A DNA stretch of 64,000 nucleotides, taken from IMG/VR virus record IMGVR_UViG_2861084961_000001; one strand, given 5' to 3'. Source of the stretch: a virus (lineage: Duplodnaviria; Heunggongvirae; Uroviricota; Caudoviricetes). Below, piece after piece: positions 5,885 through 38,720 of this stretch; positions within the stretch are counted from its first letter, which is position 1; the number at the start of each line of letters is the position of its first letter. A model generated the notes under the pieces. It was not told where the DNA came from. It did no database searches and saw nothing but the letters and a program-made list of their open reading frames with translations. The position numbers and the translations under genes were made by a program.

Positions 5885-6667
5885 ATGAAAGACGAAATTC
5901 AGAAATTAGCCTGCGACATCATTGATAAAACTGGTTTAGAAATCAGCGAGAGCAATCGGCTAGACATCATTGAAAAAGCCGTAAAAACAGCAATGGATCA
6001 TATCGCCACTCGTTTGGTTGAGATCCCGCTACCAGGGCTACCTTATCTGAAGGTTAAGTTGTGCGTATGGGGCGAACCTGCACATGCACGACGTTCTGCA
6101 TTAGTTGTTTTTGTACGCAAAGAAAACTTACGTACTCTAAAAGTGCAGGTTGGGGCGTGGTTTGATGGCAGAGTCATCTATACAGATACCATTATCTGTC
6201 CTCCAGGTGACGAACATATTGAAGCCGTCATTCGAGAGTCAATTCGAGCTATGCGCAGTTTAGCTTTGCTGGAAGACAAGCAAAACTTTGAAGATTACTT
6301 GCTGTCGGTAAAAGCTGAACCAACATTGTCTCTAAAAGCCGATTTCGTCACCCCGACAAACCTATTGGAAGTCTTGCTTAATAAAGGGGCTAATGATGCC
6401 GTAAATGTAATCAGAGAGAGTGAGTATGCGTCTCTTTGCGACATGTGCAAAAGCCAGTTGGATCTGGTGCATATCGTTATTGATGCTGGGAAGGCATGTG
6501 ATGGCGTAATGGCGGAATTTGCTGGGAAGATGGTCAGGATTGCTAACGAATTACCGATGATAGAGCAAGAGGCTAAATCATACGCCACCAATCATGTCAC
6601 AGAGCTTCTTGTCCCCTATCGCTTAGAAAGCAATCAGCGCAAGATGATTAGCTGGGGAAGTTGGTAA
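5885..6667 (+). CDS. Hypothetical protein (260 aa)
   Basis: ORF in operon context. Confidence 0.45.
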   Translation: MKDEIQKLACDIIDKTGLEISESNRLDIIEKAVKTAMDHIATRLVEIPLPGLPYLKVKLCVWGEPAHARRSALVVFVRKENLRTLKVQVGAWFDGRVIYTDTIICPPGDEHIEAVIRESIRAMRSLALLEDKQNFEDYLLSVKAEPTLSLKADFVTPTNLLEVLLNKGANDAVNVIRESEYASLCDMCKSQLDLVHIVIDAGKACDGVMAEFAGKMVRIANELPMIEQEAKSYATNHVTELLVPYRLESNQRKMISWGSW

Positions 6668-6723
6668 TCTCTCCGCGCGTCGTTTTTTTACGCAAACAAT
6701 GATAGGTAAGTACAAGATTATCT

Positions 6724-7206
6724 ATGGTGATGGTTGTGAAAGCTGATTTGTCAAAAATCCCCTCTATTTCAGGAAATAATGGTTATTCACTTCGTTGTGA
6801 GGAAGTAAAGATAAACGGTGAGTCGGCATATTGCAGCTACTCCGTTTGCCAGCACACCATTCTTGCCTTCAAAGAAAACCGTCTTCCTCGAACTTCATTC
6901 CAGTCGTGCGCAACCGCTATCAAAGCAGGCAAATGCAAGGCGTTAAAAATGATGGTTGAAGAGATTCGTAAAGGAGAATCTCTGTATTTCGAAGATATGA
7001 CCGCGCTCATTAATGAGGTTGAAGAACGGAATAAACAAGCCAGAACTATAAAACGAAAACGTGACAGTGTAACGATTAATAGCATGGTTAAGAAGAGCGC
7101 CACATCACAAACAGCGATCACTGACGTGTATGCGGCGTTGCTTGAAGAAACAACAAAAGAAACACATGAGCAAATCGATCAACATATGGAGGCAAAACAA
7201 CAATGA
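6724..7206 (+). CDS. Hypothetical protein (160 aa)
   Basis: ORF; stop overlaps ligase start. Confidence 0.4.
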   Translation: MVMVVKADLSKIPSISGNNGYSLRCEEVKINGESAYCSYSVCQHTILAFKENRLPRTSFQSCATAIKAGKCKALKMMVEEIRKGESLYFEDMTALINEVEERNKQARTIKRKRDSVTINSMVKKSATSQTAITDVYAALLEETTKETHEQIDQHMEAKQQ

Positions 7207-8524
7207 AAAAGTTGATCGCACTTAAGCATAAGCTGGACGAAATGAAAGCTATGGGAACCAATGCAAAAAAAGAGGCATTGGCCAACATGGATGACTTCGA
7301 GCAAAGCATGGTTTCATTGATGCTCAACCCTTTCATCCGTTTTGGGGTAAAGAAATACAAAGTGGCAGAGCCGCTTAGTGAGTCCGTCCCAAGTGACGAA
7401 AAAGCCATTGATATACTGAATAAGCTGGCCTCTCGCGAGCTGACGGGGAACGCAGCAATAGCTGCTGTTGAGTCTATCGTGGCGTCAATGTGCGCCGATG
7501 GGCAGGACGTGTTCCGTCGTTTCCTCTTAAAAGACCCGAAAGCAGGTGTTGGGATTAGCCTATGCAACAAGGTTTTGAAAATCCCATTCCGAAATTCGAG
7601 GTGCAGCTGGCGTCACCGTATAAAGAAAAAGGCGACAAATACCCCTTCAAGCCAAATCCTAAAGCAAAATGGCCGATGATTGGCAGCCTTAAGCTCGATG
7701 GTTTGCGAGTAATTTGCGAGGTTATTGTTGACGAGGAAGAGGTGAACTTCCTTTCTCGTACTGGTAATCCAATCACGTCTCTCGATCACCTAAAGCCAGC
7801 CATGCTCGAATTAGGCAAACTTTCAGGCCACAAACACATCTTCTTCGATGGTGAAGGAACAGCCGGTTCATTTAACCAGTCCGTATCTGCATTGCGCAAA
7901 AAGAACGTGCAGGCAATTGGCGCTATTTATCATGTTTTCGACTTCTTCCTACCGGAATGGTGGGCACAGGCTAAATCCAAAGAGTATGCAAAGACAGGTA
8001 TGAAGCTGAAAGAGCGCCTGGCTATGCTCGTGGCGTTGTTCAAAAACGATCGCAGTGAAGACTATGCGCAAGACATTCACCTGCATCCGTTCTACATCAT
8101 CCATAGTCACGAAGACTTCATCGAACGCTTCATGAAACGCCTGGACGATAACGAAGAAGGGGAGATGGGCAAAGATCCGAACTCTGTTTACGAGTTTAAA
8201 CGTACCCGCAGCTGGTGGAAGTTAAAAGACGAAGATTCAGAAGATGGTGAAATTATCGACTTTGAGCCGGGTGACCCGGACTCTGGTTTTGCCAACACGC
8301 TTGGAAAAATTGTTATTCGCCTTGAAAACGGTGTGATTGTTCGTGCGAGCGGAATTAAGCATAAATATCTGGACGAGATCTGGAACAACAAAGAGAAGTA
8401 CCGTGGTCGTATTGTCGAGGTTCATTGTCACGAGAAAACGCCGGATGGCAGCTTACGCCACCCACGACTGAAATGGCCGCGTTGCTTACGCGATACAGAA
8501 GATCGAATCGGAGATAAAGAATGA
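7203..8524 (+). CDS. ATP-dependent DNA ligase (T4-type), reading frame broken at T-run 7573-7576
   Basis: N-terminal part LTGNAAIAAVE...GISLCNKV resembles T4 ligase N-domain; second frame carries adenylation motif SLKLDGLR (KxDG); inserting one T in the tttt run restores NKVFENPIPKF. Confidence 0.8.
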
Positions 8525-8700
8525 TGCTCGGCTGGATGATTGCATTTTTAGCAGTTGGTTTTTTTATCGGTATTGTGGTGATGTCCAGTTGCATTAATGA
8601 TTACATTAAAAACGGTGTTATAGAAAGACGCGGTCGTATTTATCGCATTGTAGAAATAACCAACACCGTGAAGGAGATTAAGGATGATCGTATTAAGTAA
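8521..8700 (+). CDS. Small single-pass membrane protein (59 aa), paralog of 8896..9048
   Basis: Hydrophobic N-terminus MMLGWMIAFLAVGFFIGIVV then RGRIYRIVEIT motif shared with next-but-one ORF. Confidence 0.4.
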   Translation: MMLGWMIAFLAVGFFIGIVVMSSCINDYIKNGVIERRGRIYRIVEITNTVKEIKDDRIK

Positions 8701-8899
8701 ACGGGAGAAGGAAACACTTCATGAAATCAGTAAGTGGCCGGAGTTCCCTGAGTACTGGAAGCCTAAAACGCGGGCTAAGTTAGAGCGGTTAGGGTTGGTT
8801 GCAAACGTTTCTGAAACGAAGTGTTCGGCCAACTACCAGTTAACTGATAAAGGGAAAGTATTGCTACAGCAATTAGTAGAATCAGGAGCGTTAAAATGA
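8684..8899 (+). CDS. Hypothetical small protein (71 aa)
   Basis: ORF with overlapping start/stop in small-gene cluster. Confidence 0.35.
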   Translation: MIVLSKREKETLHEISKWPEFPEYWKPKTRAKLERLGLVANVSETKCSANYQLTDKGKVLLQQLVESGALK

Positions 8900-9048
8900 T
8901 TCCATACATCTCATTAGCTTTTATGGGTGGCTTCCTTATCGGCTTCGGCATCTGTCGTGATTTAATTAAGCAGGAACTTAAAACCAAAACACTGTGCATC
9001 GGAAAGCGTGTGTATCGGGTAGTTCATGAAACAAAGGTTAGAAAATGA
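8896..9048 (+). CDS. Small single-pass membrane protein (50 aa), paralog of 8521..8700
   Basis: MIPYISLAFMGGFLIGFGIC then GKRVYRVVHET motif. Confidence 0.4.
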   Translation: MIPYISLAFMGGFLIGFGICRDLIKQELKTKTLCIGKRVYRVVHETKVRK

Positions 9049-9335
9049 GCAATTTAACTTCTTGGGACTGGTGGTTGGCCACCTATTTCTTAGCGGCCGG
9101 AGTCGCATTCGCCTTTTACGTAGGTCAGTTAGTCGTAAAACTGCTGCTGATTAAATTTGCCAGTCATAAACGTATCGATGATGGTCTGTGGCGTCTTGGC
9201 ACCCTGGTGGAAACTCGCTACGGGCAACTTAAGGAGAACGAAACCATTACTATCCAAGCGAAACGGTTCACTGCCACCATCACAAGAACACCTAGTCGTA
9301 GAGTGGCCTTGATCAAAAAAGTCACAACCGAATAA
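9045..9335 (+). CDS. Small membrane protein (96 aa)
   Basis: N-terminal hydrophobic segment WWLATYFLAAGVAFAFYVGQLVV. Confidence 0.4.
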   Translation: MSNLTSWDWWLATYFLAAGVAFAFYVGQLVVKLLLIKFASHKRIDDGLWRLGTLVETRYGQLKENETITIQAKRFTATITRTPSRRVALIKKVTTE

Positions 9336-10111
9336 AAATACAATAATAAGTATTTACTTACTTATCTTTTATGTATAAGATGACTTTGTTTTCGTTGAGA
9401 CGCGACTGTTTGAACTTAAATACAAGTGCAAACGAAGAAGTCTATCTGGCAGTAGCCTAATAAGCCAAACACCAGCGAGGTCAGTTTCCAGCCTCGTTAC
9501 CGAAATGGGACACACTGAGCGAGTGTGATTGCAGAACGCAGGAGGGAACATTCATGTTCCCTCCGATGAAGTAACAGAATGGGCGGTTGGTATATTTTCA
9601 ACTCCATATGACTCCCGGATTCTTAGCCACTGACCGCCCATCCTGTTACGTCATTTTGTTCAATTATGTCGTTTATACTGGGTTAAAAAGCGGCGACGTA
9701 GCCCGGCTGGTATGGTTAGCCAGCACACAACGTTGAGGCCATTACATTTTTATCAATTCTAAGGTTCTATTCACAGAGATACCGGCGAGCGTTGATATGT
9801 AACATGTTGGGCAAACATTCAATCGGAGTAGTGGCCTCAACGTTGTGAAGACAGGATTGTTGTGTAGGTTTAACCACTGTTGCCATTGGTGCCTGTTTTC
9901 ACAACAAATGATTCCATACATCACATTGTATAAATAACAAAGTAGGTGCTGTCCTCAGAAACATCATCTACTTAAAGATTTAGCCTTCTATTGAGCGAAG
10001 TCGAAAGCGTCTGGCACTAACGTAAAGTGCAAGTAGCGGTGCGTTTCCTGGCAGAAACTAACACCGCCGCGATTGGCACTGTTGAGTAATAAATACTGTC
10101 AGTGCTGAATT

Positions 10112-21659: not shown

Positions 21660-22115
21660 ATGATAAGTGATAAGGAAATGCGCATGATCGCCGATATTTA
21701 CGAGAAAATAATGTCTGATCTCGAGTTTGACCGAGACAATCTGGAAGAAGTCTGGCGTAGACAACCCCGCCTGTTGATGGAATATGGCTCAAAACTCGCT
21801 CATGCAGAAAAAAGTGTCGCAGAGGCAAAACTTAACCTTGAAGCTGTTGAAGCAAAGCTATACGACACAGAGCGTAAGAACTTGAGTATGAACGGCATTA
21901 AGTTCAACGAGTCTGTACTGGACGCTAAGGTTAAAACAAACCCACAGTATCTGTCTAAACGGCAGAAGTTGGATGAAGCACGGCACATCGCAGACATATA
22001 CAAACATGCTGTCGCCGCCTTTTCGCATCGCCGAGACATGATCGTTCAGGCGTCGAAGATGGCCATTGTTGAATTGGAGCGATTAGGCTCCGAACGCTTT
22101 ATTACTCCCCGTTGA
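21660..22115 (+). CDS. Hypothetical coiled-coil protein (151 aa), possible recombination mediator
   Basis: ORF between polymerase and SSB; helical/charged composition. Confidence 0.4.
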   Translation: MISDKEMRMIADIYEKIMSDLEFDRDNLEEVWRRQPRLLMEYGSKLAHAEKSVAEAKLNLEAVEAKLYDTERKNLSMNGIKFNESVLDAKVKTNPQYLSKRQKLDEARHIADIYKHAVAAFSHRRDMIVQASKMAIVELERLGSERFITPR

Positions 22116-22232
22116 TTTTTGATAGATAATAAGTAAGTACTGATCTATCATTGAGCAGCTCGAAAGAGCCACGAATGAACGAAAGCCCAACGCGCATAGC
22201 GCCATCGGCCAAATCACAACAAGGAGAAACAC

Positions 22233-23261
22233 ATGTCTAAGACATTACTTGATTTGCTTAACAAAACTCGTGAAGACATTGCCGCCAAACGTGGTAACAA
22301 CGTTGATCTGACTCGCTTAAAAGATGGCGTCAACTATATCCGTATCTTCCCGAATAAGGACGACCCAAACGGTAAGTTCTTCCAGACTTTCGGTATGCAC
22401 TACGTTAAGTATCAGAACGAGGACGGTAAAGAAGCAACCAACGCTTATATTTGTGAGCAACATACTCACGGTCGCGCTTGTCAGCTATGCGAAATGGTGA
22501 TGGAAGGTCGCGCTCGTCACAAGGGTAACAAAGCAATGGAAGAACGCATCGGTCAAATGCGTGCCACTCCTCGCTACCTGGTCAACGGCATTCTTTCAGC
22601 TCGTGAGGATTTCGCCGATGCAGAGAAATGCCAGTTAATCGAACTGCCTTCCACTGTATTCGATGATATCTGCAAAGCAATCACCGAAGACATCGCTGAT
22701 GATATCGGTAATCCACTGAGCAAAGAGGAAGGCTACGCATTCCTGATTAAACGTACTGGCTCTGGTCGCGATACCAAATATGACGTCTCGCCTAAGCGTA
22801 AAGTCTACAAAGGCGATATCGAAGATAAATTCTGGAATACCCAGCATGATCTGATCGCATACGCAAATCAGGCTGATGAAACTCGTCTTCTCTCGACAGT
22901 TCGCACTATGGGCCGTCTGATTGGCATCGCAGCACCAACTGCCTCTGCATCTGCACCAGCAATTTCCTCTACCGCGAAAACATCGGCCGCGGCACTGCCT
23001 GGATTTGGCTCTGTCACTGGTCATACGGAGGGTGCGACTGCTGTAGCAACCGCTCACACCCCAGCATCTGAACCAACCAGTCTGGTTGATGAAGAAATCC
23101 TCCGAGCCGTTGAAACTGAATTTAAACCAGAGGCAAGTTCCGCTGCCGTTGCCGTATCAGTCAAAGAGTCTGAAGCAGTCGCAGCGACATCTGTAGCAGC
23201 CGCATCTGCGACGGAAGATGAAGGTCTGGATGATCTACTGAGAGAGCTTGACTCTCTGTAA
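22233..23261 (+). CDS. gp32-like single-stranded DNA-binding protein
   Basis: IRIFPNKDDPNGKFF and Cys/His cluster CEQHTHGRACQLC resemble T4 gp32 zinc-binding core; acidic Ala/Ser-rich C-terminal tail. Confidence 0.7.
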   Translation: MSKTLLDLLNKTREDIAAKRGNNVDLTRLKDGVNYIRIFPNKDDPNGKFFQTFGMHYVKYQNEDGKEATNAYICEQHTHGRACQLCEMVMEGRARHKGNKAMEERIGQMRATPRYLVNGILSAREDFADAEKCQLIELPSTVFDDICKAITEDIADDIGNPLSKEEGYAFLIKRTGSGRDTKYDVSPKRKVYKGDIEDKFWNTQHDLIAYANQADETRLLSTVRTMGRLIGIAAPTASASAPAISSTAKTSAAALPGFGSVTGHTEGATAVATAHTPASEPTSLVDEEILRAVETEFKPEASSAAVAVSVKESEAVAATSVAAASATEDEGLDDLLRELDSL

Positions 23262-23277
23262 TCCCATTACGTGACCA

Positions 23278-23306
23278 GTAAGGCGTCTACGGACGCCTTA
23301 CTTTTT
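23278..23306 (+). terminator. Terminator hairpin gtaaggcgtctacggacgccttac + T-run
   Basis: Stem ggcgtc/gacgcc, tacg loop, ttttt. Confidence 0.7.
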
Positions 23307-23321
23307 GGAAGGAATGTACCG

Positions 23322-24266
23322 GTGAATTATCTCTTCGTAGATGGCAATAGCCTGGGTTATTACCACCAACAATCTGACAAATTGCACAACGGCGAAATGG
23401 AAGTACAGGCTGCTTTCGGCTTTGTTAAGAACGTCCGTCGTTATGCCTCCATCCTCCATGCCCGACCTATGATTCTTTGGGATGGATTTAGTGACAAGCG
23501 TCGCGACTTTTACCCGGACTACAAAGCAAATCGCGACGACGATCCTGATATGAAAAAGATGAAGGAAGGCTTTGCTATCCAGAAGCCATACATCCTCAAA
23601 ATGATGACCGCGCTTGGAGTTACCCAACTCATTGCAAAAGATGCAGAAGCGGATGATCTGGCCGGGCTGCTGGTATCCCGCATGGCACCGCAGCCAACCG
23701 TTGAACACATCTATCTGTTAACAGGCGATAGCGACTGGCTTCAGTTAGTTCGTGAAAACGTAAGCTGGGTAAGCCTGCGTGAAGACGCCAAAAACAAGCA
23801 GGTTAATTTTGAGCAATTTGCGAAGCTGACAGGATTCGCCACGCCTCGCGCATTTTTGGAAGCAAAAGCATTACAAGGCGATAACTCGGACAACATTAGC
23901 GGTGTTGGTGGCATTGGTGCTGGCGGTGCGAAAGAGCTGCTGCATGAATGGGGAAGTGTCGCAACGATGGTACGCGGCATCAACGACGGCTCAATCGTGG
24001 TTAATAAAGGGCGTCATAAGACCGCCTTCAACAAACTAGCGAAGAATGCCTTCAACGAGAAAACAGGCTGTCGAATGCTCGAAGCGTTCAAGAGAAACAT
24101 CACGCTAATGAACCTGATTGAGACGAAGTTTCCGCCTACCGAAATCGAAACAATCAAAGGCAATCGTGACGTGAAAGCATTCGAGCAACTGTGCTACGAG
24201 CTGAATTTCCGTTCGTTCCTTGAAGACCTTGAAGTGTTTGTTCTTCCATTCGAAAGGTATTGCTAA
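23322..24266 (+). CDS. 5'-3' exonuclease / flap endonuclease (phage RNase H-type)
   Basis: VNYLFVDGNSLGYY N-terminal FEN motif, YLLTGDSDWLQLV; start placed at GTG 23322 after terminator and GGAAGG RBS (longer ORF from 23271 would overlap the terminator). Confidence 0.75.
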   Translation: MNYLFVDGNSLGYYHQQSDKLHNGEMEVQAAFGFVKNVRRYASILHARPMILWDGFSDKRRDFYPDYKANRDDDPDMKKMKEGFAIQKPYILKMMTALGVTQLIAKDAEADDLAGLLVSRMAPQPTVEHIYLLTGDSDWLQLVRENVSWVSLREDAKNKQVNFEQFAKLTGFATPRAFLEAKALQGDNSDNISGVGGIGAGGAKELLHEWGSVATMVRGINDGSIVVNKGRHKTAFNKLAKNAFNEKTGCRMLEAFKRNITLMNLIETKFPPTEIETIKGNRDVKAFEQLCYELNFRSFLEDLEVFVLPFERYC

Positions 24267-24532
24267 TGCTTAAATCGATTATTAATGGCGCTACAACCAC
24301 CCCTGCCCAACTGGCAAAAGAGATTGTCTTTTATCACGGTGAGTACGCTGTCATCGCACTGCCGTCAATTCTAGGCACTGCCGGAATGAAAGCGACAGAT
24401 CGCGAGTTTGGATTAGTCAGCGAGCAGGTCGTAAAAATCCTCGCTCGTGTATCCAGACTCCTTAACCACGATGCGATTGTATTCGACGAATCCGCCGCTT
24501 TAAAACGAATCAACGAAACAAAAGGAGCCTGA
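24260..24532 (+). CDS. Hypothetical protein (90 aa)
   Basis: ORF start-overlapping upstream stop. Confidence 0.35.
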   Translation: MLMLKSIINGATTTPAQLAKEIVFYHGEYAVIALPSILGTAGMKATDREFGLVSEQVVKILARVSRLLNHDAIVFDESAALKRINETKGA

Positions 24533-24534
24533 TC

Positions 24535-25608
24535 ATGGCAAAAGGAAAATCCGCACTGGCACTTGCTCTGAAAAAGAAAATCGGTAGCAACGACGAAATT
24601 CAGAAAGTAACTCATTGGATTGACACAGGCTTTCCTCCGTTAAACAAAGCTATTTCCGGTCGTTACGATGGCGGTTTCCCATGTGGTCGTATCGTCGAAG
24701 TATTCGGGCCGCCAAGCGCGGGGAAAACTTTTTTGGCAACGGCAGCAATGATCTCCGCTCAGAAACAAGATGGCCTGGCGGTATTCCTCGATCATGAGAA
24801 CAGTTTTGACGTTGGCCTGGCTGTCGCCAATGGTCTGAACGCAGATGAGGATGACGGCCAGTGGGTATACAAGCAGCCTGATACCTTCGAAGACTCTGTA
24901 GAGTTGATCGGCACAATACTTAAATTGGTACGTGATGAAGAGCTTATCCCTGAATCAGCACCTATCTGTATCGTGGCTGACTCACTTGCGTCTATGGTTC
25001 CGAACTCCAAAGCCGAGAAGTTCGAAAAGATGGCTGAAGGCACTGCCAAAGACAAAGATCAGCTAAACATGAACGACAATACGGCGCTGGCTCGTGCAAC
25101 GAGTGCGAACTTCCCCACTCTGGCTTTGTGGGCACGCAAATACAACGCCTGCATCATCTTCTTGAATCAGGTTCGCACAAAAATCGGTGTAATGTTTGGC
25201 GACCCTACTACGTCACCAGGCGGCGATTCACCGAAGTTTTACGCTTCTGTGCGCATCCGTCTCGGTGCATCGGTGATGAAGGATGGTAAAGAGAAGATCG
25301 GTCAGGACGTAGGCGCAGAGTGCATCAAAAACAAAGTTGCACCACCGTATGGCAAATGCACCTGGAAATTCTACTTCGATCCTACTCGTGGCCTCGACGT
25401 TATCGAGTCGCTCGTCGAGTACATGCTGGAAGAAGGATACCTGCCAAAGAACGCCAGCGGTCGAGTAGAAATTGGTGACAAGAAATACACCAAATCACAG
25501 ATCGTCGAGATGTATCGGGAGAAGCCACTAGCTGAAATCATTGCAGCTTTACAGGCAATCGACGACCGGAGAGCAAAAGATACCCCCACCGAGTCAGTAG
25601 AAGGGTAA
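24535..25608 (+). CDS. RecA/UvsX-like recombinase
   Basis: GRIVEVFGPPSAGKTFLA Walker A in RecA core context; 357 aa. Confidence 0.85.
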   Translation: MAKGKSALALALKKKIGSNDEIQKVTHWIDTGFPPLNKAISGRYDGGFPCGRIVEVFGPPSAGKTFLATAAMISAQKQDGLAVFLDHENSFDVGLAVANGLNADEDDGQWVYKQPDTFEDSVELIGTILKLVRDEELIPESAPICIVADSLASMVPNSKAEKFEKMAEGTAKDKDQLNMNDNTALARATSANFPTLALWARKYNACIIFLNQVRTKIGVMFGDPTTSPGGDSPKFYASVRIRLGASVMKDGKEKIGQDVGAECIKNKVAPPYGKCTWKFYFDPTRGLDVIESLVEYMLEEGYLPKNASGRVEIGDKKYTKSQIVEMYREKPLAEIIAALQAIDDRRAKDTPTESVEG

Positions 25609-25613
25609 ACACA

Positions 25614-25636
25614 AGGCGTCCATAGGACGCCTTTTT
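25614..25636 (+). terminator. Terminator hairpin ggcgtccataggacgcc + T6
   Basis: Stem ggcgtcc/ggacgcc followed by tttttt. Confidence 0.75.
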
Positions 25637-25700
25637 TATCTCTTGAAAATATATAAGTACTTACTTATTATTTTCGCATAACAACCACATAGGAAAACAC

Positions 25701-25901
25701 ATGATCAAAATCTATCTATTGGCAGTAGCCACAGGCCTTTCTGTGGCTCTCATCTACGGATTACTGGTTCCGTCGCTGATTTCTGCAAAGAGTGATTTGG
25801 CCGTCATGCTTGGAGTTCTCGTTGGTTTTGGCACTCCTGTAATCGGTCTTATTGCTGGTCGTAAGTTTATTAACTCATTAATCAAAGCAAAGGGGAAATA
25901 A
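25701..25901 (+). CDS. Small two-helix membrane protein (66 aa), possible NfeD-like partner of SPFH protein
   Basis: Two hydrophobic segments; immediately upstream of SPFH gene; conserved GGAAAACACATG start context. Confidence 0.4.
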   Translation: MIKIYLLAVATGLSVALIYGLLVPSLISAKSDLAVMLGVLVGFGTPVIGLIAGRKFINSLIKAKGK

Positions 25902-25904
25902 GTA

Positions 25905-26734
25905 ATGAAGAAAGGTTTACTTGCAGTTGCTCTGGCGGCTATTTGCACAATGGGTCTTACTGGCTGTGATCGCGTGGAGCCTGGATACGTTGGCATCAAA
26001 GTAAACAAATTAGGTGAAGACAAAGGGATTGGTGAAGTGGTTGGCGTTGGTCGCCAATGGACAGGTCTTAACACCGAACTTTACGTATTCCCGACCTTCA
26101 AACAAATGAAGACCTACGACGAGCCGTTCACATTCCAGATGAGTGACGGTACTGCTATTGGTCATAAAATTGGCGTTGCGTATCTGGTTAATCGTGACAA
26201 GGTAACGACGGTGTTCCAGACCTATCGCAAAGGCGTAGACGATATCACCGAATCAGATCTGCGTCAGAAAATTGCCGACTCTCTAAACCGTTTGGCCAGC
26301 CGTATGACCACTGACTCATTTATCGACGGTGGTAAGGCGCAATTGCTGGACAACGCACTGAAAGATATTCAGAAAGAGATGTCTCCGGTTGGTATTGAGG
26401 TACTGAGCCTATCATGGGTTGGAAGCCTGATTACCCAAAAACCGTCATTGAATCTATCAACGCCAAAGTAACGGCTAACCAGCGTACTCTGCAACGTCAG
26501 CAGGAAGTCGAACAACGTAAAGCTGAGGCGAATATGCTGCGTGAACAGGCTAATGGTGAAGCTGATGCTATTCGTGCTCGTGCGCAAGCAGAAGCAGACG
26601 CTATTCGTCTGCGCGGTGAAGCTCTGCGTCAAAACCCGAACGTTATGGAACTGGAAGCCATCAATAAATGGAATGGCCAGTTACCGCAGTACATGACTCA
26701 AGGGGCTAACACTCCTTTCATTACAGTGAAATAA
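25905..26734 (+). CDS. SPFH/band-7 family lipoprotein; frame broken near 26400-26470
   Basis: Lipoprotein signal MKKGLLAVALAAICTMGLTGC; C-terminal coiled-coil with EAxA repeats; -1 frame relation between the two ORFs. Confidence 0.55.
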
Positions 26735-26753
26735 CTCTCTTTAAGAAGATCAG

Positions 26754-26778
26754 GCGTCCAGTTGGACGCCGTTTTATT
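26754..26778 (+). terminator. Terminator hairpin ggcgtccagttggacgcc + T-rich tail
   Basis: Same GGCGTCC stem family as terminators at 23278 and 25614. Confidence 0.65.
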
Positions 26779-26829
26779 CTCGTTATTATCACACACAAGA
26801 AAACAATTTGTTAAAAGGTTAAGTTAATT

Positions 26830-27654
26830 ATGCCCAACCACATTACAAACGAAATCCGAGTCATAGGTGGTACAAATAAACAACGCTTAGATTTCATACG
26901 TGCCATAACTAACAAAAAAGGTCTAATTGACTTTAATACCATTTGCAGACGTCCGAAAAGTATAGAAATGGAAGAAAACAATCATATCAGGCGCATGGCC
27001 TCTGCAATGGCGGGCGAAACAGTTTACGACTACATGTTCGGTGAATTAAAGACTCCAGAACAGGTCGAATTAGCTATGCGTGAATCTGGAATGACACGCA
27101 AGGAAATTCGCAAAATCAAAGAGCAGGCTCTTATGCGGCTTGAGAATTATCGTCGCTATGGCTATTACTCATGGTTTGACTGGTCGCGAGCTAATTGGGG
27201 AACAAAATGGAATGCCTACAACATCGAAATGCCCGTAAAACGTATCCCTACACGTATTAAGTACGGCCATAATTTCCGCCATACACACGTTCGAGCATAT
27301 GCAAAACGAATCTATAAAAAACGTCTTGCAAGACATGCCGCAACTGGTGGTGAGTTGGTGATTCGCTTTGAAACAGCCTGGTCTATGCCAAAACCAATTT
27401 ATCAAGCGATGGCTAGAAAGTTCCCGCACCTTGAATTTGTAATACGTTATGCAGACGAAGACTTCGGCAATAACTGCGGATTCATTTTACTTCGCAACGG
27501 CAAATGGGAATATGACTACATTGCACCGGCGAATAACGAACAATCGTCAGAAGAAAAAATCAAATGGCGCAAGTTCGCCTTTGAGTTATGTTGTCCTGGT
27601 ATTACTCCACAAGAATACGGTCTAAATGAAGAATACGAATACGCCGGATATTAA
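26830..27654 (+). CDS. Hypothetical protein (274 aa)
   Basis: ORF preceded by AGAAAACAATTTGTT motif; Trp-rich segment YSWFDWSRANWGTKWNAY. Confidence 0.45.
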   Translation: MPNHITNEIRVIGGTNKQRLDFIRAITNKKGLIDFNTICRRPKSIEMEENNHIRRMASAMAGETVYDYMFGELKTPEQVELAMRESGMTRKEIRKIKEQALMRLENYRRYGYYSWFDWSRANWGTKWNAYNIEMPVKRIPTRIKYGHNFRHTHVRAYAKRIYKKRLARHAATGGELVIRFETAWSMPKPIYQAMARKFPHLEFVIRYADEDFGNNCGFILLRNGKWEYDYIAPANNEQSSEEKIKWRKFAFELCCPGITPQEYGLNEEYEYAGY

Positions 27655-27779
27655 AAAATTGTCATTTAGCTTTACGCATGAAGCATAGAGGTTAATAAGA
27701 TGAAAAGAAAATTGAAGAACCAAAAACAACCCTTAATAAACATGGGGAAAAAATTCAAACACATCCAGCGTTCGGTCTT

Positions 27780-28439
27780 GTGAAAACAAGCCGTGTTAGC
27801 ACAACTGGCATTCGCCTATTTGATTCAGAACTGGAACATAGAGACTATATTGAAATAGGCGTTTACGAGGCAGAGCTGTCCTTAGACAATGAACGAACCC
27901 GGCCACAAAGAAGTAGCAATAGACGGCCTTTAGTTGAAATTAGACTTAGCCAGGCACAATGGGCTGCTATGGTTAGCAGTTTTGGTGTGGGCGAAGGTGT
28001 GCCATGCACTATTTCATATAAAACCATTGGCGACTCAATTAGAGTTCATGATATTGCCGAGCAAAAAAGTATTCGGCAAAAATTCAACGATCAAATAAAG
28101 GCAGCTACGAATAGTGAGATTGATCGACTTAATCAGCAAGTTTCAGAGCTAGGTGAGCTTGTGAAAAAAGGAAGAGCTGGAAAACGTGACCTTGAAGAAC
28201 TATATAGAAAACTTGCATCTGCTGTAGCTAACCTTCCTGAAAATCTGTGCTTTGCTACCGAATTAATGCAGGAGCAAATGGATGAAATTGTCTCATCTGG
28301 AAAGGCGGAGATTGAGGCGTATGTTGCAGGCACTGTTATGCGTAAAGGATTAGCAGCATTAGGTACAGAATCATGCATTAACGATGATCCTACAGTCTCT
28401 ATCACCAAAATGGAAAGCGGTAAAGAATTACTGCCATAA
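27780..28439 (+). CDS. Hypothetical coiled-coil protein (219 aa as given; may start upstream at ATG 27700 via a frame break)
   Basis: ORF; upstream in-frame continuation and ATG 27700 in -1 related frame near an A-run. Confidence 0.4.
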   Translation: MKTSRVSTTGIRLFDSELEHRDYIEIGVYEAELSLDNERTRPQRSSNRRPLVEIRLSQAQWAAMVSSFGVGEGVPCTISYKTIGDSIRVHDIAEQKSIRQKFNDQIKAATNSEIDRLNQQVSELGELVKKGRAGKRDLEELYRKLASAVANLPENLCFATELMQEQMDEIVSSGKAEIEAYVAGTVMRKGLAALGTESCINDDPTVSITKMESGKELLP

Positions 28440-28506
28440 ATGTATCTGAGGTACTGACAATGCTTTTAATTCAACCTGGGTTCGGTTTAAAGATAAAAAA
28501 GGACAT

Positions 28507-28848
28507 ATGTTTGGTGAGAGAGATTCCAAACGAAAAATTCTGTCTATTCGATTGCCATTTATCACCATTCATTGGTTAAACAGAGAGTCAACCGATTATT
28601 GGTATAAATGTGCAAGAGCAGCATTTAACGACCCTGACTGGTTTATAGAAAACCACCACGCGGTTCGTCAGGCAAAAAGAAAGGCAAATACGACATATAT
28701 GAAGGCATATCAGGATGCCTGGGAAGAACATCGTGGTCGATACCAAAAAAACATTGAAAAACTTGAATCTGAAAATATGGACCTAAGAAGAAAACTCGGT
28801 GAAGCACGGCGAGATATTGAAGCATATAAACGTCTTGTATCGGAGTGA
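28507..28848 (+). CDS. Hypothetical protein (113 aa)
   Basis: ORF in AT-rich block. Confidence 0.35.
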   Translation: MFGERDSKRKILSIRLPFITIHWLNRESTDYWYKCARAAFNDPDWFIENHHAVRQAKRKANTTYMKAYQDAWEEHRGRYQKNIEKLESENMDLRRKLGEARRDIEAYKRLVSE

Positions 28849-38654: not shown

Positions 38655-38688
38655 TTTCATTGATAGGTAAGTGCTTATCTATTAACAT

Positions 38689-38720
38689 GGGCCACTATAT
38701 TTAGTGGCCCTCTTTATTTG
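38689..38720 (+). terminator. Terminator hairpin gggccactatatttagtggccc + T-rich
   Basis: 7 bp GC stem, followed by tctttattt. Confidence 0.6.

What the first reader, a model, noticed from the sequence alone, without database searches (positions are those of the whole stretch)
23278..26778. Family of terminators sharing a GGCGTCC / GGACGCC stem
Terminator hairpins after the SSB (23278-23306), RecA-like (25614-25636) and SPFH (26754-26778) genes all use the same GGCGTCC stem with different short loops. This suggests a conserved element or a recognition site for a processing or termination factor, not independent terminators.
Basis: seen in the sequence. Interest (0 to 1): 0.35.

Follow-up and report, generated by a model that had tools for sequence, protein, structure and literature searches.

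The report
Repeated terminator hairpins bracketing a phage moron
Three look-alike stem-loops in an SSU5-type phage-plasmid are ordinary transcription terminators rather than a factor-recognition site, but two of them are direct repeats that flank a small accessory gene cassette and have let it drop out precisely in several related phages.

Summary
The window is an SSU5-like phage-plasmid, 98% identical to Escherichia phage CMS-2020a. All three hairpins exist where stated. T2 (25613-25633) and T3 (26753-26770) share the 7-bp stem GGCGTCC/GGACGCC. T1 (23278-23301) shares only the 6-bp core GGCGTC/GACGCC, closed by a UACG tetraloop. There are no further copies in the window or in two complete 100-109 kb genomes.

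Across about 90 related loci the stems are kept while the loops vary. One compensatory change and several G·U wobbles point to a plus-strand RNA hairpin, not a sequence-specific site. Other terminators of this phage are just as conserved, and unrelated viruses use the same stem.

T2 and T3 do share a history. They bracket a 1.14-kb moron (promoter, small membrane protein, SPFH lipoprotein). About 29 relatives lack it and carry one chimeric hairpin. In two independent lineages the junction lies inside the 5' arm or inside the 3' arm/U-tract. This resembles PeSL-mediated shuffling in T4-like phages. T1's match is only marginally beyond chance (p about 0.07).

Verdict: ordinary terminators, with a modestly interesting repeat-mediated cassette indel. 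Interest is low.

The parts
22233..23261 (+). gp32-like single-strand DNA-binding protein gene; T1 follows it
   Evidence: Pfam gp32, E = 1.6e-66; ORF list
23278..23306 (+). T1: a 10-bp stem GUAAGGCGUC/GACGCCUUAC with a UACG tetraloop, followed by UUUUU. It sits inside the operon, between SSB and the exonuclease, and is probably a leaky terminator (attenuator).
   Evidence: -19.8 kcal/mol, z = -4.2. The stem is invariant in 85 related loci and the loop is UACG or UGCG. No promoter fits between T1 and the exonuclease start (GTG 23322, with the SD GGAAGGA).
23322..24266 (+). 5'-3' exonuclease gene (start GTG 23322)
   Evidence: The Pfam 5_3_exonuc_N domain begins at residue 3 of this start. SSU5 and Cyrano annotate the same start.
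24535..25608 (+). RecA/UvsX-like recombinase gene; T2 follows it
   Evidence: Pfam RecA, E = 2.2e-42
25613..25639 (+). T2: a 9-bp stem AAGGCGUCC/GGACGCCUU with loop AUA and a U-tract. It is the left copy of the direct repeat.
   Evidence: -18.6 kcal/mol, z = -6.7. Orthologues in 57 loci include compensatory and wobble variants.
25643..25671 (+). Sigma-70-like promoter of the cassette (TTGAAA-17-TATTAT). Its spacer holds the palindromic motif ATAAGTACTTACTTAT.
   Evidence: Promoter scan, 10 of 12 matches. The motif family has 15 sites against 0.29 expected.
25701..25901 (+). 66-aa membrane protein, the first gene of the cassette
   Evidence: PHROG 1130, category 'moron, auxiliary metabolic gene and host takeover', E = 7.6e-26
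25905..26734 (+). SPFH/Band-7 lipoprotein gene, the second gene of the cassette. In this window a 1-nt deletion near 26422 splits it into two ORFs.
   Evidence: Pfam Band_7; PHROG 200; frameshift located by alignment to L135 and Cyrano
26753..26778 (+). T3: a 7-bp stem GGCGUCC/GGACGCC with loop AGUU and tail GUUUUAUU. It is the right copy of the direct repeat. The repeat period from T2 to T3 is 1138 bp.
   Evidence: -16.6 kcal/mol, z = -3.8. Orthologues in 49 loci mostly have a UUUUUU tail.
26786..26812 (+). Conserved element after the terminator (TTATCAC..AAGAAAACAAtTTGTT). It follows T3, and in cassette-less relatives it follows the single hairpin.
   Evidence: The core AAGAAAACAAnTTG occurs 7 times on the + strand against 0.27 expected.

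Best explanation
T1, T2 and T3 are ordinary Rho-independent terminators that act as plus-strand RNA hairpins followed by U-tracts. They lie in the recombination module (UvsY-like, gp32-like SSB, 5'-3' exonuclease, RecA) of an SSU5-type phage-plasmid.

T1 lies inside the operon with no promoter after it. It is therefore inferred to be a leaky terminator that lets SSB be made in excess over the exonuclease and RecA.

T2 ends the operon. T2 and T3 are paralogous direct repeats: the 7-bp stem plus the U-tract, about 24 of 28 nt identical in many relatives. They bracket a self-contained moron consisting of a sigma-70-like promoter, a 66-aa membrane protein gene, an SPFH lipoprotein gene and a terminator.

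Recombination or replication slippage between the two copies removes the cassette precisely and leaves one chimeric terminator. The reverse reaction could insert the cassette. The shared stem therefore reflects common descent of T2 and T3, and it has a consequence at the DNA level. It does not indicate recognition by a dedicated factor.

Shown: the hairpin anatomy, the pattern of conservation and covariation, the presence or absence of the cassette, and the positions of the junctions.

Inferred: termination itself and its efficiency, the direction of the events (loss versus gain), and the recombination pathway.
For: Anatomy. GC-rich stems are followed by T-runs within 5-19 nt of stop codons on the coding strand. 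Folding is strong.

RNA-level structure. 95.4% of cells are paired across 24 distinct variants. There is one U-A to C-G compensatory change, and there are G·U and U·G wobbles that pair only on the + strand.

No special sequence constraint. Other orthologous terminators (windows 4552, 38689, 43306, 52661) are equally invariant between the window and SSU5, and 55647 shows its own compensatory change.

Cassette indel. 29 of about 86 related loci have a single hairpin after RecA, followed directly by the element that normally follows T3.
- SSU5-type locus L205: 45/45 nt upstream identical to the T2 flank of L156, the loop is that of T3, and 60/60 nt downstream are identical to the T3 flank. The junction is therefore inside the 7-nt 5' arm.
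- E. coli-type locus L192: 43/45 nt upstream match the T2 flank, the loop is that of T2, and 59/60 nt downstream match the T3 flank. The junction is therefore inside GGACGCCTTTTT.

The cassette-less forms are nested among cassette-bearing relatives in a neighbour-joining ordering of the exonuclease region, and one cassette-bearing locus (L216) is nested among the cassette-less Klebsiella-type loci.

Cassette content is moron-like. A homologous two-gene pair sits in the P2-like phage P88 with a different terminator.
Against: There are no transcript 3'-end data, so termination is only predicted.

T3 in this window has a weakened U-tract (G UUUU A UU).

The 7-mer shared by T2 and T3 would not be significant on its own (p = 0.20). 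The case for common descent rests on the comparative junction evidence.

The direction of the events (deletion or insertion) and the original source of the duplication are not resolved.

T1's membership in the same lineage is uncertain (p about 0.07). No T1/T2 fusion was found in IMG/VR.

Other rearrangements at this locus do not use the hairpins: L139 has a deletion from 26054 to 28621, and L150 has a type I R-M insertion inside the SPFH gene.
Confidence: 0.75

Rival explanations
1. Coincidence. The three are independently evolved terminators that happen to use the same GC-rich stem. The cassette indels are generic events with no causal link to the repeat.
For: Terminator-level null models give only p = 0.02-0.03 for the triple and p = 0.20 for a shared 7-mer. 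Unrelated viral contigs with no protein similarity to the window use GGCGTCC-N3-4-GGACGCC followed by a T-tract. Other rearrangements at this locus ignore the hairpins.
Against: In cassette-less genomes the single hairpin joins the exact T2 upstream flank to the exact T3 downstream flank. The junction lies inside the repeat in two independent lineages, once in each arm. T2/T3 identity extends through TTTTTTAT(C) beyond the stem. All three hairpins lie within 3.5 kb.
Confidence: 0.13
2. One reading: the GGCGUCC hairpin is a sequence-specific recognition element for a phage or host RNA-binding, processing or (anti)termination factor, or a palindromic DNA site for a dimeric protein.
For: The stem is identical at orthologous sites in genomes only 76-80% identical, while the loops vary. 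T1 plus its flank is perfectly conserved for about 40 nt.
Against: There are only three copies per roughly 105-kb genome. Compensatory (GGCGCCC/GGGCGCC) and wobble variants persist in natural lineages. Loop length and sequence are not conserved, so the half-site spacing varies between 3 and 4. The wobble variants break DNA symmetry. Other terminators are just as conserved. There is no Rfam match.
Confidence: 0.07
3. The hairpins are targets of a site-specific or hairpin-directed mobile-element mechanism that inserted the cassette, comparable to integron attC sites, IS200/IS605 insertion, or intron insertion after a terminator.
For: A cassette is bounded by two copies of a folded inverted repeat and is excised precisely.
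Against: The cassette holds only a promoter, a membrane protein gene and an SPFH gene, with no integrase, transposase or intron ORF. The junctions fall at different positions in the repeat in different lineages, which fits homology-driven rather than site-specific cleavage. The hairpins are 17-21 nt perfect stems without attC-like extrahelical features.
Confidence: 0.05

Closest known systems
Canonical Rho-independent (intrinsic) terminators of enterobacteria and their phages
   Same: A GC-rich 7-10 bp stem, a 3-4 nt loop (T1 has a C(UACG)G tetraloop), a U-tract immediately 3', a position just after stop codons, and pairing kept by compensatory and wobble changes.
   Different: Nothing essential differs. 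Two copies share a sequence by descent, and T1 is internal to its operon, so it must be leaky.
PeSL (promoter-early stem-loop) mobile regulatory cassettes of T4-like phages (Arbiol et al. 2010, PMC2839356; Comeau et al. 2014, PMC4122927)
   Same: Repeated terminator stem-loops next to conserved sigma-70-like promoters flank non-essential genes. A flanked gene in one phage is replaced by a single chimeric element in a close relative, which is explained by recombination between the flanking repeats.
   Different: PeSLs are composites of about 100 bp present in about 50 copies per genome, clustered in hyperplastic regions of lytic myoviruses. Here the repeat is 17-28 bp (stem plus U-tract), there are only 2-3 copies, and the host element is a temperate siphovirus phage-plasmid. 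Mini-circles have not been shown. The junctions lie in the stem arms or U-tract, not in an AT-rich promoter region.
Morons of temperate phages (Juhala/Hendrix concept, from established knowledge): an autonomous promoter-gene-terminator unit inserted between conserved genes
   Same: The cassette has its own promoter and terminator, sits between conserved genes, is present or absent among close relatives, and encodes membrane or lipoprotein products.
   Different: The moron's terminator is a copy of the terminator of the gene upstream. This gives a built-in route for precise loss, which is not part of the general moron definition.

Membership tests
Rho-independent terminator | Stable GC-rich RNA stem-loop on the transcribed strand | tested here: met
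   -16.6 to -19.8 kcal/mol, z = -3.8 to -6.7; stems of 7-10 bp with at least 6 G-C pairs
Rho-independent terminator | U-tract immediately 3' of the stem | tested here: met
   T1 has TTTTT and T2 has TTTTTTAT (two of the T's are in the stem). T3 has GTTTTATT in this window (weaker) and TTTTTTAT in most relatives.
Rho-independent terminator | Located downstream of a stop codon, in the same orientation as the gene | tested here: met
   17, 5 and 19 nt after the SSB, RecA and SPFH stop codons respectively
Rho-independent terminator | Pairing, rather than sequence, is what is conserved | tested here: met
   95.4% of cells are paired. There is one U-A to C-G compensatory change and there are G·U and U·G wobbles (variants). 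The variation is small, so the support is modest.
Rho-independent terminator | Transcript 3' ends map to the U-tract | not testable with these tools
   No Term-seq or RNA-seq data are available. The moron table of the Cyrano transcriptome paper is an image.
PeSL-type mobile regulatory cassette | Composite of a stem-loop and a conserved sigma-70-like promoter | tested here: met
   T2 is followed 10 nt later by TTGAAA-17-TATTAT, which carries a motif found at 15 sites in the window.
PeSL-type mobile regulatory cassette | Many copies (tens) per genome, concentrated in hyperplastic regions | tested here: not met
   There are only three GGCGTC hairpins per roughly 105-kb genome. Other terminators have unrelated stems.
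PeSL-type mobile regulatory cassette | The flanked gene(s) are replaced in a close relative by one chimeric element | tested here: met
   L205 versus L156 and L192 versus L196; 29 loci have a single hairpin.
PeSL-type mobile regulatory cassette | Excised mini-circles are detectable | not testable with these tools
   This needs PCR or long reads on phage lysates.
Moron | Own promoter and terminator; dispensable; variably present between conserved genes | tested here: met
   Promoter 25643-25671 and terminator T3; presence or absence in about 86 loci; PHROG moron category.
Moron | Expressed from the repressed prophage | not testable with these tools
   No expression data could be read.
Sequence-specific RNA or DNA recognition hairpin (for example a boxB-like or operator palindrome) | Specific stem or loop nucleotides and spacing are invariant, with multiple regulated sites | tested here: not met
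   Loops differ in sequence and length (AUA, ACA, AUU, GUU, AAAC, GAAU, AGUU, ACUU). The stem tolerates compensatory and wobble changes. There are three sites only.
Integron attC / hairpin-targeting transposon | An associated integrase or transposase, and a fixed cleavage position | tested here: not met
   No such gene lies in or beside the cassette. The junctions fall in different arms in different lineages.

The most novel reading that the evidence does not exclude
The GGCGTC hairpins are preferred exchange points that the adjacent phage recombination module (UvsY-like, gp32, 5'-3' exonuclease, RecA) exploits. Together with the conserved promoter motifs next to them, they would form a PeSL-like cassette gain-and-loss system in SSU5-type phage-plasmids. 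That would make the region downstream of RecA a programmed cargo hot spot. In relatives this region holds an SPFH moron, a type I R-M system, or unknown ORFs.
Probability: 0.08. Interest if true: 0.6.

Novelty: new member of a known kind. Interest (0 to 1): 0.22.

Why it matters
The practical value is for annotation. These are terminators, and T1 should not be read as part of the exonuclease CDS, as it is in one deposited record. The finding also gives a clean natural example, outside the T4-like phages, of a moron whose terminator duplicates its neighbour's and so provides a scar-free route for loss, and possibly gain, of accessory genes. SSU5-type phage-plasmids are clinically widespread and carry cargo such as resistance genes. 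Knowing where and how their cargo region turns over has some relevance, but the mechanism is already known in principle.

Tried and rejected
- Single GGCGTCC/GGACGCC heptamers elsewhere in the window (1053, 1795, 17005, 39370, 51875, 58083) have no partner arm.
- One-mismatch hairpin searches in the whole CMS-2020a and SSU5 genomes found nothing extra.
- A search for T1/T2 fusion hairpins, which would mark deletion of the exonuclease-RecA block, found none. The two hits were an ordinary T2 in a more distant relative and an unrelated terminator.
- The genome-contig scan with RecA gave only 4 close relatives.
- The next RecA relatives in the phage collection are at or below 51% amino-acid identity (Stenotrophomonas, Xanthomonas, Pseudomonas and Rhizobium phages). 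That is too distant for nucleotide comparison of terminators, so the origin of the duplication could not be traced.
- Rfam gave no family. PADLOC gave no defence-system match for the cassette proteins.
- I considered whether T1 lies inside an N-terminally extended exonuclease ORF, as annotated in pJN2-26. I rejected this because there is a strong SD before GTG 23322, the Pfam domain begins at residue 3 of the short form, and the differences in the extension are mostly non-synonymous.
- The similarity between the SSB upstream region and the cassette promoter/5'UTR (D3 and D15) is explained by a promoter motif and an RBS consensus shared by many genes, not by a specific duplication.
- The Cyrano transcriptome paper could not be used, because its moron table is an image.
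Full report
**What the window is.** The region 22000-28000 is 98% identical to Escherichia phage CMS-2020a, 96-97% identical to phages PhiR41_1 and Cyrano, and about 80% identical to Salmonella phage SSU5 and Klebsiella relatives. The window is therefore an SSU5-type phage-plasmid. Pfam and PHROG assign the genes in this order:
- UvsY-like mediator, 21660-22115
- gp32-like SSB, 22233-23261
- 5'-3' exonuclease, 23322-24266
- small ORF, 24260-24532
- RecA, 24535-25608
- 66-aa membrane protein, 25701-25901
- SPFH/Band-7 lipoprotein, 25905-26734
- DUF1281-type protein, 26830-27654

**The observation.** All three hairpins are present.
- T1 is GUAAGGCGUC-UACG-GACGCCUUAC followed by UUUUU.
- T2 is AAGGCGUCC-AUA-GGACGCCUU followed by UUUUAU.
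- T3 is GGCGUCC-AGUU-GGACGCC followed by GUUUUAUU.

T1 shares only the 6-bp core GGCGTC/GACGCC, because its seventh position belongs to a C(UACG)G tetraloop. All three fold strongly, and all sit 5-19 nt after stop codons on the coding strand.

GGCGTC-N1-8-GACGCC occurs 3 times against 0.02 expected in shuffles. That null only shows that hairpins exist. I listed 19 convincing terminators in the window. All the others have unrelated stems. Simulated stems gave these probabilities:
- P(at least 3 share any 6-mer) = 0.02-0.03
- P(at least 2 share a 7-mer) = 0.20
- P(one more terminator carries GGCGTC, given that two do) = 0.07

No other copy, even with one mismatch per arm, exists in the window, in the complete 109-kb CMS-2020a genome, or in 100 kb of SSU5.

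**Structure or sequence?** I collected 80 IMG/VR loci, 4 bacterial contigs and several GenBank phages that carry the orthologous RecA.
- T1 is present in 85 loci. Its stem is invariant and its loop is UACG or UGCG.
- T2 is present in 57 loci, with loops ACA, AUA, AUU, GUU, ACU, AGU, AAU, AAAC or GAAU.
- T3 is present in 49 loci, with loops AGUU, ACUU or AUU.

Stem variants also exist.
- GGCGCCC/GGGCGCC is a compensatory U-A to C-G change. It occurs in L158, L159 and a Yersinia pestis contig.
- GGCGUCC/GGGCGCC and GGCGUCC/GGACGUC carry U·G or G·U wobbles that pair only in plus-strand RNA.
- A few variants have weakened base or top pairs.

On 24 distinct variants, 95.4% of cells pair. This fits a plus-strand RNA hairpin. 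It is hard to reconcile with a sequence-specific RNA or palindromic DNA site, whose spacing would also have to vary between 3 and 4 nt.

The invariance of the stem between genomes that are only 76-80% identical is not special. Other orthologous terminators (window 4552, 38689, 43306, 52661) are equally invariant between the window and SSU5, and 55647 shows its own compensatory change. Unrelated viral contigs, with no protein similarity to the window, use the same stem plus a T-tract. Rfam has no matching family.

**What links T2 and T3.** In Klebsiella phage ST13-OXA48phi12.3, RecA is followed by a single GGCGTCC hairpin. Its downstream flank is the sequence that follows T3 elsewhere (TTATTATCACC..AAGAAAACAA.TTGGTT), and the membrane-protein/SPFH pair is absent. 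In the census, 29 of about 86 loci have this single-hairpin form, in several backbone types. Three-way comparisons give the following.
- SSU5-type L205 is identical to L156 for 45/45 nt upstream of T2. It has the T3 loop (ACUU) and is identical for 60/60 nt downstream of T3. The junction therefore lies inside the 7-nt 5' arm.
- E. coli-type L192 matches L196 for 43/45 nt upstream of T2. It has the T2 loop (ACA) and matches 59/60 nt downstream of T3. The junction therefore lies inside GGACGCCTTTTT.

A neighbour-joining ordering on the exonuclease region nests these cassette-less forms among cassette-bearing relatives. It also nests one cassette-bearing locus (L216) among the cassette-less Klebsiella types. 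At least two independent, precise events have therefore used the repeat.

The unit between the repeats has a period of 1138 bp. It carries its own sigma-70-like promoter (TTGAAA-17-TATTAT), two genes and T3. The first gene falls in the PHROG 'moron' category. A homologous gene pair sits in the P2-like phage P88 with an unrelated terminator. T2/T3 identity extends beyond the stem into TTTTTTAT(C) in most relatives.

**Mechanism.**
Shown: the three elements have full intrinsic-terminator anatomy, and T2 and T3 are direct repeats at whose arms the cassette is lost or gained.

Inferred:
- T1 is a leaky, operon-internal terminator. Only about 20 nt, holding just a Shine-Dalgarno sequence, separate it from the exonuclease start. 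The exonuclease and RecA must therefore be transcribed by read-through, which would set an excess of SSB over the enzymes.
- T2 ends the recombination operon.
- Recombination or slippage between T2 and T3 deletes the moron, and the reverse reaction could insert it.

Whether T1 descends from the same ancestral hairpin or matches by chance (p about 0.07) is open. No T1/T2 fusion was found.

**Comparison with known systems.** The closest described phenomenon is PeSL-mediated modular shuffling in T4-like phages. There, repeated stem-loop/promoter composites flank ORFans, and a flanked ORF is replaced by a single chimeric PeSL in a sister phage (PMC2839356; PMC4122927). The logic here is the same. 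The defining high copy number and the roughly 100-bp composite are not met, because the GGCGTC stem has only three copies. I therefore describe this as working like a PeSL, not as a PeSL family member. It also fits the classical moron concept.

The window does hold conserved promoter-type motifs next to terminators. In addition, 8 of 26 window-versus-SSU5 homology-block ends fall within 20 nt of a terminator or such a motif. Selection for intergenic junctions would produce the same pattern.

**Verdict.** The 'recognition site for a factor' reading is not supported. The 'not independent' reading is right for T2/T3 for a different reason: they are paralogous repeats bounding a moron. This is a new member of known kinds and of low interest.

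Noticed in passing
window 2390, 9346, 16552, 22129, 25653, 30491, 33989, 38663, 43240, 43378, 48209, 48870, 50425, 54470: A 16-bp near-palindromic motif, ATARGTAnnTACYTAT, occurs 15 times (at most 2 mismatches) against 0.29 expected. It typically lies in the spacer and -10 region of sigma-70-like promoters, including those of the SSB gene and the SPFH cassette. It is a candidate operator or conserved promoter class of SSU5-type phage-plasmids.
   Followed up: partly
window 240, 3170, 26797, 41101, 51315, 52042, 52756 (+ strand): The motif AAGAAAACAAnTTG(TTT), which contains the inverted repeat AAACAA/TTGTTT, occurs 7 times, all on the + strand, against 0.27 expected. The sites are 20-45 nt upstream of start codons and often shortly after a terminator. 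The copy after T3 is conserved in all relatives. Its function is unknown; it may be an operator or a promoter element.
   Followed up: partly
window ~26422 (within 25905-26734): The SPFH/Band-7 gene is split into two ORFs (25905-26471 and 26414-26734) by a 1-nt deletion (GGAAAG to GGAAG) relative to about 50 relatives with an intact 276-aa lipoprotein. This is either a pseudogene or a sequencing error.
   Followed up: yes
L001 5536-7875 (Cyrano); also L192-L210: In Cyrano, PhiR41_1 and many IMG/VR relatives, RecA is interrupted after about residue 64-72 by an intein with a LAGLIDADG homing endonuclease (779-aa CDS). The window's RecA (357 aa) lacks it.
   Followed up: partly
L150/L151 ~6550-9500; L139 ~6520; L188 4700-6600: The region downstream of RecA is a cargo hot spot. 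In L150/L151 the SPFH gene is truncated at about window-equivalent 26084 and followed by a type I R-M HsdM-like gene (807 aa). L139 has a deletion from 26054 to 28621. In L188 the single hairpin is followed by an unrelated 530-aa ORF with no Pfam match.
   Followed up: partly
L009 5251-6246 (Klebsiella phage pJN2-26) versus window 23271-23321: The deposited annotations of pJN2-26 and ST13-OXA48phi12.3 start the exonuclease CDS at an upstream ATG, so the T1 terminator hairpin is annotated as coding. The shorter start (equivalent to GTG 23322) is better supported.
   Followed up: yes
L213 6084 (Yersinia pestis NCTC5923 contig, 108 kb): A Yersinia pestis contig carries the same recombination module, with the compensated T2 (GGCGCCC-AUU-GGGCGCC) and a normal T3. 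T2 and T3 are therefore not kept identical by concerted evolution.
   Followed up: no
window block ends versus SSU5, e.g. 135, 1317, 21548, 26810, 31228, 33987, 47078, 55637: 8 of 26 ends of window-versus-SSU5 homology blocks lie within 20 nt of a terminator or one of the two conserved motifs. Mosaic junctions therefore concentrate at these regulatory elements. Chance would give about 0.65 of 26 (my own rough estimate, not a computed tool result), but the pattern is also expected from selection for intergenic junctions.
   Followed up: partly
window 38663-38710: A promoter of the palindromic-motif class (TTGATA-17-TAACAT) is followed immediately by a strong hairpin plus T-run (GGGCCACUA-uauu-UAGUGGCCC, -16.6 kcal/mol). 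It is conserved in SSU5 and may be a promoter-proximal attenuator.
   Followed up: no
L082 5200-5787 (IMG/VR contig 3300028888_000125, unrelated): Three copies of (t)atGGCGTCC-N3-GGACGCCa lie within 600 bp of an unrelated 69-kb viral contig and have no T-tracts. This is a different repeated element that shares the same palindrome.
   Followed up: no
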